Origin: Lama guanicoe
Lineage: Eukaryota
DNA: 64,000 nucleotides
NCBI GenBank assembly: GCA_013239625.1
Contig: MU056898.1
Coordinates: 2,261,717-2,325,716 of the forward strand
Direction of reading: 5' to 3'
The notes under the pieces are model-generated. The model ran no database searches and was not told where the DNA came from. It saw only the letters and a list, made by a program, of their open reading frames with translations. Of this stretch, positions 35,501 through 38,500 are shown in pieces. Position 1 is the first letter of the stretch. Each line of letters begins with the position of its first letter. A program made the position numbers and the translations under genes.

Positions 35501-38500
35501 CAGGCAAGGCGGGGGCACAGCGGGAGGCGGCTCTGGGGGACGGGCACGGTCACCACGTCTCGACTGTGGAGTCGGTTCTAGGTGCAGCAAAACCCATCGG
35601 GCCCTGGACTTCAGTAGAACTGTTTGAAAATGGGGATGAGGAAAGAATGGGGCTGACCGAGCCTCGGGCTCTGCTCTGGCGCCGACACCAGAACCTTCCA
35701 TCTGCGCTGTGGCGGGCAGCAGGGGCACAGCACTGCGTTGGGACAGCACTGTCCCGCCCATTCACACCCGCTGCGGGGCCGCAGCCTGTCGAGGTCTGAG
35801 GGAGCTGCGGGCGCTGGTCAACCTGCTGCAGAGCCTGAGCACAGGTGGGACCAGGTTCGATCTGCAAGGTGCCACATCCAGCCCGAGTGGCCACACCATG
35901 CACGTTCTCAGGGTTAAGAGGCGCTGGACCTCTCTGTGCCTGGCCTGTCCGTCCTTCGTCGGATCTGGGATGAGCCCCTGCACAGAAACGCCAAGGCCCA
36001 TGTTGAACGCAGGTGGACGAGGGGGTCCCCACACCTGGGGGTGGGAACAGGGGAGCCACGCATGTTGCAACCTCACTCTTTAAACCTTTGACATGAAAAA
36101 CTGCAGAAGGACATCAATAGGGAGCAGCCACGTGCCTGGTGGTCCCGAGGGTGTGGCCCAGCCTGGACTCGGTGGCTGTCACCATGGGTAGTGGAGGCGC
36201 CAGGGCATCTAGTTTGGAGAGACCACGAGAGGGGTCCCTGACAAGTGGCAGAAAGCACAAGAGCCCACGGTCAGCTCTCTGGGGAGAAAAGCCTTTCCCA
36301 TGGCTCAGGCCGTGTGGACAGGAGCTGAGTTCTCCATGAGGCAATGAGCTCCCCGTCCCTGGTGGTGTACAAGCTGCAGCGGTGGGGCAGGCTTGGCAAG
36401 GCCAACCGAGAAGCCCTCAGAGTCCATCCGGGAGCACAGGCTCTCACTCGGCCCTCGTTCTGGTCATGTGGGCGAGGAGAGGGGTGAATCGTCACGCCCC
36501 GGCGTTTTCTGTCCTCCTTCCCACCCACCCACCATGGGCTCCGCACGAGGCTCTCCATGAGCCTGGATGGCGAGGCTGGAGCTTGATGCCATCAAGGGCT
36601 TATAGGCCCCGGCTCCGACAAGCTCACGGCCGTGGCTAAGACACGTGCAGAGGGTGTCAACCTGAACATCCACGGGACATGAGTTCAGGGGTTGGGCTCT
36701 TAGGTGCCAGCAGATCTTGAGACGTAGCCCGTCAAGGGCCCCAGGTGGATTCTGTCTGCAGGAACCAGCCATGGTGGGTGCCGGGTGTGACCGAGACAGT
36801 CCTGCAGGGTGGGAGGGGCGCGTGCAGTCTCGGTGGCCCCGCCGCGTCACTCCACTCTGCTCTGCCGGCATCAAGGGGTCAACTCAAGACGCTCCAAGAT
36901 GAAATGTAAGTGACAAAAGGCTCGGGTGTAGGAGTGCCCCACGCCTTGGGCCTAGTGAGTGGGGAGCGCCCGGGAACTGCTCAGCGCGGGGTCTGGACCA
37001 ACGGGAGCGCCCAGGGAGGAGGGGAGGGAGGGCTGGGGGGCCCAAGTGCCCAACCCAAGCCAAGCTGGGGCGGGTAACTCGCAGGGTGTGGCTCAGTTCA
37101 CACGTGCGCCCAAGGTTGATACTATGATAGAAGACAAAAGCGTGTGCACCGCAGGTCTATGACACAGTCCCGAAGGCGCTCATCGCCGTCAGCACCACAG
37201 TGATGTGCTCATCGTACATGAGTGTGCAGGGGACCCACCTGCAGGGGGCCCGCACACACCCTCGGCGACCAGGGGGAGCTGCCACTCCTCGTCCAGCGCT
37301 GCATGGAGGAAGGGGAGACAGCACGGCCCTGCCACTACGTGAGGGTCTTGCTGGGCTGTTTTAAATCTGGGGAAAGTCCAGGGAATGGAGGTGCCCTCTG
37401 GCTGGACCACCTGGAGGAGACCTCCCGGGAGGCTGGGGATTTTCTAAAGTAACTCATGTGCCTTTTAAGACAAACAAATGGTAGAAACAACCTCTGTGCC
37501 AGCCTTGGGATGGAGTCAGTCATGGCGCAAGACCATTCTAGCAGCTCTTAGAGTTCGGGCGTGGCTCCCAGTAAAGAGAAAAAGTAGCCGAACCCAGTGA
37601 CATGCAGGGGTGCAGGACACCTGGAGGGACAAGGTCCCCGGGGAAATGTGGTCACCAGGGGGAGACGAGGTCCCCAGGGAGATGCGGTCACCGGGGGCAG
37701 ACGAGGTCCCCGGGGAGACGCGGTCACCGGGGGCAGACGAGGTCCCCGGGGAGATGCGGTCACCGGGGGCAGATGAGGTCCCCGGGGAGACGCGGTCACC
37801 TGGGGGAGACGTGGTCCCCAGGGAGATGTGGTCACCTGGGGGGGACGTGGTCACCTGGGGGAGACGTGGTCCCCGGGGAGACGCAGTCACCTGGGGGAGA
37901 CGTGGTCCCCGGGGAGACGAGGTTACCTGGGGAGATGAAGAAGGTCCTCCACAGTTTCTTGTCTCGTGTGACGTCCCGGATCTCCTTGGTCATGTTGACC
38001 ATCCTGCCGGCCACGGGAGGGACACGGTGGAAGCCCAGGATCCTGGCAGAAGGAACAGGGAAAGGAGTCCTTACCTCTGTGCCCTGGCTGCTCCTGCTGG
38101 AGCTGGATGGACACCTCGCTCTAGCCCACGAGGCCCAGTCGGGGCCTGGGGCCTGCAGAGTGGTCACTGACGGCCAGAATCGGACCCACAAGGATGGAGC
38201 CTGGTGTTGTGTCTACCTGCCAGGTGCCCAGGCAACTAAAACACACCCTGCCTCGGGGCTGAGCCTAAAACAAAATCAAAGTAACTGCTGTCAGTGGGGC
38301 TCTCTCTGAACCAGGCGCCGCTGCCCACTAATCAAACAGAGGGCGGGGGTGAGCCTTTCTGGCCAAGGCAGGGCGCGGCTGTCCTGCAGGAGAGGCACAC
38401 GGTGCTGGGGGCACGGGCACGTGGCTGCCTCGTCCCACCCCCGCGCCCCACCCCAGTGTAAATGAGCCCCTCCCAGTGAGCAGCCCTGAGGCTTTCGGGT

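What the first reader, a model, noticed from the sequence alone, without database searches (positions are those of the whole stretch)
37633..37938. Minisatellite built from the FAM20C exon-5 splice donor creates in-frame cryptic donors at the kinase dimer interface
Seen: the array's terminal unit is the exon-intron junction itself (TCTCCCCAG|GTAACC). Intronic copies read TCTCCCCCAG|GTGACT or |GTGACC, placing donor-like sites 36, 72, 91 and 127 nt downstream (exon ends at 37891, 37855, 37836, 37800). The +36 and +72 sites are in frame and stop-free, and would insert [12 protein letters not shown] or [24 protein letters not shown] right after FFISP; +91 and +127 frameshift. The 9-mer CAG|GTGACC is the real donor of FOXL3 exon 1 in this window, so it can be functional. 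Known (recalled): human F354/P357 in FFISP contribute to the FAM20C homodimer and FAM20A-FAM20C interface that activates the kinase, and human FAM20C has a separate 34-bp duplication polymorphism over the exon-4 donor. Inference: repeat copy number could tune the ratio of normal, dimer-defective and NMD-targeted isoforms.
Basis: partly seen in the sequence, partly recalled or inferred. Interest (0 to 1): 0.72.

Follow-up and report, generated by a model that had tools for sequence, protein, structure and literature searches.

The report
Splice-donor repeat in camelid FAM20C
In a camelid kinase gene, the end of one exon and its splice signal are copied into a short repeat that leaves four look-alike splice signals just downstream; this layout is already known from several human genes, and the extra signals are most likely little used.

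Summary
A 310-bp minisatellite (36-bp period, 17+19-bp subunits) starts in the last 10 bases of FAM20C exon 5 and repeats CAG|GTGACY at +36, +72, +91 and +127. The +36 and +72 sites are in frame and would insert 12 or 24 residues right after the F-x-S-P dimer motif. The layout is that of the human F7, IFI6, CBS, LMNB2 and PDGF junction minisatellites, where the first donor is used alone or with at most two neighbours. Donor use was not measured here. Indirect evidence favours the first donor: all six members of the camelid FAM20C cluster have the normal junction, and the loop length is fixed in 106 of 108 proteins. The two exceptions are draft camel gene models, which also show that the array exists in Old World camels. 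Copy-number tuning is unlikely, because distal units have lost the CAG and the proximal sites do not move with array length. One extra: unnamed records of other animals carry their own repeats at the same donor, some varying in length. This scan has noted the same class many times on other DNA. Verdict: new member of a known kind, low interest.

The parts
37927..38042 (-). FAM20C exon 5 (116 bp), ending in the codons of the F-x-S-P dimer motif plus one base
   Evidence: exon number by count from the 3' end and by human c.957 = start of exon 5
37921..37929 (-). Authentic exon-5 donor CAG|GTAACC
   Evidence: junction matches camelid RefSeq proteins
37628..37937 (-). Minisatellite, 36-bp higher-order period made of 17-bp and 19-bp subunits; first unit spans the exon-intron boundary
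   Evidence: 36-bp units 30-35 of 36 identical
37885..37893 (-). Pseudo-donor +36, CAG|GTGACT, in frame (12-residue insert if used)
37849..37857 (-). Pseudo-donor +72, CAG|GTGACC, in frame (24-residue insert if used)
37830..37838 (-). Pseudo-donor +91, CAG|GTGACC, frameshift with stop in exon 6 if used
37832..37834 (-). In-frame TGA inside the array; closes the reading frame for every donor from +127 on
37794..37802 (-). Pseudo-donor +127, CAG|GTGACC, behind the in-frame stop
37650..37766 (-). Four decayed donor copies (CCG|GTGACC at +163, +199, +235; CTG|GTGACC at +271)
   Evidence: U1 duplex -5.3 (+163) and -5.1 (+271) kcal/mol
37615..37623 (-).
31819..31999 (-). FAM20C exon 6 (181 bp), the acceptor partner
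18824..18832 (-). FOXL3 exon-1 donor CAG|GTGACC, same 9-mer as three of the pseudo-donors (comparison only)

Best explanation
This is a junction-spanning minisatellite: the end of FAM20C exon 5 and its donor are copied into intron 5, and the spliceosome most likely uses the first donor almost always, leaving the copies as tolerated spares. Shown: the anatomy, the reading frames and the presence of matching units in Old World camel gene models. Inferred: the array grew by local slippage or unequal exchange from a short (about 17-nt) duplication of the junction; the first donor wins because it is most upstream, has A at +3 and is more exposed; any leak at +36/+72 is small, and leak at +91 and beyond would be removed by nonsense-mediated decay.
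For: Same layout as F7 IVS7, where only the most upstream site is used although the copies are functional, and only a perfect-consensus copy competes (PMC1557585 abstract, section 9, Discussion); LMNB2 and PDGF arrays also use only the authentic donor. All 6 of 6 members of the camelid FAM20C cluster (alpaca, dromedary, wild and domestic Bactrian records and one unnamed Logan entry) have the normal junction. 106 of 108 proteins with both flanking motifs have exactly four residues between them; the 2 exceptions are draft camel gene models. No short protein among 35 hits carries the insert joined to exon 6. The real donor 9-mer is predicted more open than each of the five CAG|GT copies at all three window sizes (1.4- to over 100-fold). 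Distal copies have lost the CAG.
Against: No junction reads were counted, so a leak of a few percent is not excluded. U1 duplex energy does not separate the real donor from the copies (-8.0 vs -8.1 kcal/mol). The same 9-mer serves as the FOXL3 donor. In IFI6 and CBS two pseudo-sites are used besides the real one, and an 8-bp donor duplication in OCT1 diverts 38-52% of minigene transcripts (PMC8137991 abstract). A dromedary gene model (KAB1263680.1) reads the 12-residue insert. Protein databases miss rare isoforms, and clustering at 90% hides members.
Confidence: 0.74

Rival explanations
1. CBS/IFI6-type leak: the first one or two copies are used at a measurable rate (several percent or more), giving an in-frame FAM20C with 12 or 24 extra residues between two interface segments, probably dimer-poor and weakly active, without any tuning role.
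For: Copies are U1-compatible and in frame; precedents IFI6 and CBS use two pseudo-sites; a gene-prediction pipeline chose the +36 site in dromedary; the insert falls between F354/P357 and Y369/E374/H375, all interface residues.
Against: No such isoform among 6 cluster members or among the 120 + 35 listed hits other than two draft gene models, which also contain other unsupported extra pieces.
Confidence: 0.19
2. One reading: array length varies among animals and sets the ratio of normal, dimer-defective and NMD-bound transcripts, with a selected effect on casein or bone-matrix phosphorylation.
For: Repeats at this same donor vary in length among unnamed records of other animals (3 vs 2 and 2 vs 1 peptide units). 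A human FAM20C junction VNTR is said to affect splicing (one sentence in PMC5941971), and the exon-4 duplication is described as a mild splice allele.
Against: Only the four proximal 19-bp units keep the CAG; proximal positions do not change with total length; in F7, five to nine copies give one product; no camelid length variation and no use of any copy was shown.
Confidence: 0.04
3. The array is an assembly artefact of this genome.
For: GC-rich short repeats assemble badly; the wild-camel draft model EPY89587.1 looks like a collapsed array.
Against: Units differ from each other in a patterned way (30-35 of 36 identical). The dromedary model carries the first 36 bp in translation, and the wild-camel model carries peptides matching the distal units.
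Confidence: 0.03

Closest known systems
Human F7 intron 7 37-bp VNTR (Borensztajn et al. 2006, PMC1557585; read: abstract, section 9, Discussion, passages of Introduction and references)
   Same: First unit spans the exon-intron boundary; donor repeated at about 36-bp steps in the intron; some copies in frame.
   Different: F7 copies are identical to the real donor, here they differ at +3 (A to G); here the unit is a 17+19 composite and distal copies have decayed; F7 use was measured, this one was not.
Human IFI6 (6-16) intron 2 and CBS intron 13 minisatellites; LMNB2 and PDGF arrays (known only as cited in PMC1557585; originals not read)
   Same: Donor reiterated by a junction minisatellite.
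   Different: IFI6 and CBS use two pseudo-sites besides the real one, LMNB2 and PDGF none; which pattern applies here is untested.
Human FAM20C c.952_956+30dup at the exon-4 donor (PMC8348777, passages)
   Same: Same gene; duplication of a donor creating a downstream site.
   Different: Exon 4, a single duplication, predicted premature stop; not the same repeat.
OCT1 rs35854239, 8-bp donor duplication (PMC8137991, abstract)
   Same: Duplicated donor competes with the first one.
   Different: 8-bp spacing and frameshift; 38-52% diversion in minigenes but 0.3-0.6% in liver RNA.

Membership tests
Junction-spanning donor minisatellite (F7 IVS7 class) | Tandem array whose first unit spans an exon-intron boundary | tested here: met
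Junction-spanning donor minisatellite (F7 IVS7 class) | Intronic units reiterate a GT donor in consensus-like context | tested here: met
   Four CAG|GTGACY sites plus one CAG|GTGTCC; not identical to the real donor
Junction-spanning donor minisatellite (F7 IVS7 class) | Variable copy number among individuals | not tested
   One assembly only; camel gene models differ but may reflect assembly collapse
Junction-spanning donor minisatellite (F7 IVS7 class) | Most upstream donor used alone or nearly alone | tested here: inconclusive
   Only indirect: annotated camelid proteins all have the normal junction; no read counts
Functional multi-donor VNTR (IFI6/CBS type) | Downstream copies used in transcripts | tested here: inconclusive
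   No insert isoform in protein searches except draft gene models; rare isoforms would be missed
Functional multi-donor VNTR (IFI6/CBS type) | Allele sequence or length changes isoform ratio or activity | not testable with these tools
   Needs matched genotypes and RNA, or minigenes
FAM20C | Orthologous exons and F-x-S-P dimer motif | tested here: met
   Best solved-structure match is human FAM20C 5yh3_C, E 5.5e-19; exons 3-10 align to alpaca FAM20C, with two substitutions

The most novel reading that the evidence does not exclude
The FAM20C exon-5 donor is a recurrent site of junction copying in mammals: camelids (36-bp unit) and at least two other lineages (12- and 16-residue periods, both length-variable) each built their own array here with the first copies in frame, and these copies feed a real, low-level FAM20C isoform whose dimer surface is blocked, at a rate set by the sequence of the first units.
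Probability: 0.08. Interest if true: 0.6.

Novelty: new member of a known kind. Interest (0 to 1): 0.2.

Why it matters
As it most likely stands it matters little: one more case of a described class, useful mainly as a warning for annotation (two camel gene models were misled by it) and as a natural test of first-donor preference when the copies differ from the real donor at one intronic base. It would matter more if the in-frame copies were used, because FAM20C needs its dimer surface for activity and phosphorylates milk and bone proteins, and because repeats at the same donor seem to recur in other mammals.

Tried and rejected
Sequencing-run search with exon 10: 24 runs listed, no RNA holder listed as such; not evidence either way. 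Metagenome scan for the junction DNA of other mammals: 0 matches; second scan gave one locus, L004, a FAM20C exon 5 with an AT-rich intron start and no visible repeat in the 801 bases viewed. Structure prediction of alpaca FAM20C with a 39-row alignment: mean pLDDT 36.6, junction region under 30, unusable; the interface claim rests on the paper instead. Hairpin masking as a special property of the array: its fold is no more stable than shuffles (z -0.79). U1 pairing as the discriminator: no difference. MaxEntScan and SpliceAI were not available. Dispersed repeat family: one DNA hit and two pattern hits in the genome, all here. Papers not held: Simpson 2007, Turri 1995 and one id recalled for a 5' splice-site assay. 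PMC9311317 and PMC11732430 passages gave nothing on tandem donors. PMC10078293: no FAM20C in the main text; one supplementary row for a FAM20C intron against a different (GT) repeat, p 0.41; 1 of 11 files not searched. Paper searches (listings) showed no title or abstract on this camelid array; subscription papers and bioRxiv supplements were not covered. No complex prediction was sent: the dimer is already solved.

Full report
Setting. The window holds exons 3-10 of FAM20C on the minus strand. They align to alpaca FAM20C, and exon 10 is identical to it, including residues that differ in Camelus, so the genome is a South American camelid. Exon 5 is 38042-37927 and exon 6 is 31999-31819. The best solved-structure match of the exon-5 peptide is human FAM20C.

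Observation. TRF reports an array at 37628-37937 with period 36, 8.6 copies, score 337; it is the highest-scoring array in the window. It starts with an 18-bp unit that spans the junction and continues as 17-bp and 19-bp units, mostly alternating. The 19-bp units carry the donor-like GT. The four nearest the exon read CAG|GTGACY (+36, +72, +91, +127), the next four read CCG or CTG|GTGACC, and a degenerate last unit gives CAG|GTGTCC at +306. +36 and +72 keep the frame without a stop. +91 shifts the frame and stops in exon 6. Every later site lies behind a TGA at 37834-37832. The FOXL3 exon-1 donor has the same 9-mer as three of the copies, judged by reading frame. Searches of the genome found the array only here.

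Is it real? Two GenBank gene models from Old World camels read into the array. The dromedary model KAB1263680.1 has the same 12 residues after the F-x-S-P motif as the window's read-through, and the wild-camel model EPY89587.1 has peptides that match the distal units in another frame. So the array predates the split of Old and New World camelids (inference) and is unlikely to be a misassembly. The wild-camel model is most simply read as a collapsed draft assembly. Both models also include a 60-nt in-frame piece (37298-37239) and other extra pieces absent from the RefSeq proteins, so they are predictions, not evidence of transcripts.

Are the copies used? Indirect evidence leans to the first donor. 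All 6 of 6 members of the camelid FAM20C cluster have the normal junction. Of 184 proteins held, 108 have both flanking motifs, and 106 of these have exactly four residues between them; the other two are the draft models above. A search for short proteins with the read-through peptide gave 35 hits, none with the insert joined to exon 6. Such databases miss rare isoforms, so this excludes only a major isoform. Against my reading: a U1 duplex model (U1 5' end recalled, pseudouridines not modelled) gives the copies -8.1 and the real donor -8.0 kcal/mol, so the copies are plausible donors. For it: the real 9-mer is predicted more open than each copy at three window sizes, although the array as a whole folds no better than shuffles. 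That A at +3 is favoured over G when +5 is not G is recalled knowledge, not tested here.

What is known. Borensztajn et al. 2006 (PMC1557585; abstract, section 9, Discussion, passages read) describe the human F7 intron-7 37-bp VNTR, whose first unit spans the junction. Its five to nine identical donors are functional, yet only the most upstream is used, including against in-frame copies and against copies strengthened to a consensus value of 91; only a perfect site competes. The same paper cites IFI6 and CBS, where two pseudo-sites are also used, and LMNB2 and PDGF, where none is (originals not read). An 8-bp donor duplication in OCT1 diverts 38-52% of minigene transcripts but shows at 0.3-0.6% in liver (PMC8137991 abstract). 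The human exon-4 duplication is listed as a common polymorphism with a predicted downstream donor (PMC8348777 passages). An insert at this point would therefore probably harm dimerisation (inference; my structure model was unusable).

Why tuning by copy number is unlikely. Only proximal copies are used in the cited cases. Here only the proximal four keep the CAG, and their distance from the exon does not depend on total length. Length variation in camelids was not shown. Sequence changes in the first units would matter more than copy number; the title of a CBS paper cited reports such a case.

One thing beyond the finding. The protein searches also returned genomic read-through peptides of other animals. 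Of 71 such peptides I dropped 11 (the query, four gene models, six cluster members); 3 of the remaining 60 show a self-repeat of seven or more residues after the junction (P0006, P0007, P0154), and P0162 has a single junction-like copy followed by a flank resembling the camelid one. Cluster members differ in unit number: three against two 12-residue units (P0006, P0163, P0165 vs P0164) and two against one 16-residue unit (P0007, P0167, P0168 vs P0169). P0007 has the same exon-5 peptide as a Bos record; the organisms of these unnamed records are not established and their DNA was not obtained. Read at face value, a short junction duplication is old in hoofed mammals and expanded separately, and another lineage has its own array. 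Caveats: these are peptides, not DNA; the search favours in-frame repeats; and human FAM20C is reported as rich in polymorphic tandem repeats, so recurrence may reflect a repeat-prone region. One sentence in PMC5941971 mentions a human FAM20C junction VNTR affecting splicing without naming the junction; its source was not held.

Earlier notes of this scan list eight similar arrays, one in the same genome (CUL2); they are unchecked AI notes and were seen after I had reached the F7 comparison.

Verdict. A real junction-spanning minisatellite of a known kind. Most likely the first donor dominates (0.74); a measurable in-frame leak is possible (0.19); a selected copy-number rheostat is unlikely (0.04). 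Interest 0.2.

Noticed in passing
window 37239-37298 (-): A 60-nt in-frame, stop-free piece of intron 5 with a pyrimidine-rich acceptor and a CAG|GTGGGT donor; both camel draft gene models include it, the RefSeq proteins do not. Possible cryptic cassette exon.
   Followed up: partly
window exon 5 (about 38029-38027) and exon 9 (about 30142-30140), minus strand: Two substitutions against alpaca RefSeq: R to H near the start of exon 5 and L to F in exon 9. F at the exon-9 site was seen in 0 of 100 other proteins. Private variants or assembly errors.
   Followed up: partly
proteins P0006, P0163-P0165; P0007, P0167-P0169; P0154; P0162: Unnamed records of other animals with their own repeats at the same FAM20C exon-5 donor, two clusters varying in unit number.
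   Followed up: partly
protein P0004 (EPY89587.1): Wild-camel draft model runs from the exon straight into distal array units, as if the real donor were missing; probably a collapsed assembly, but a deletion allele rescued by the terminal donor is not excluded.
   Followed up: no
window 46403-46513 and 47591-47667: Two-copy tandem duplications (55 bp and 38 bp) inside the long intron 3 of FAM20C.
   Followed up: no
window about 22368-22592 (-): Short frame resembling a LINE-1 ORF1 fragment in an AT-richer stretch between FAM20C and FOXL3 (label recalled, not tested).
   Followed up: no
window 7290-7356: Run of 67 N.
   Followed up: no
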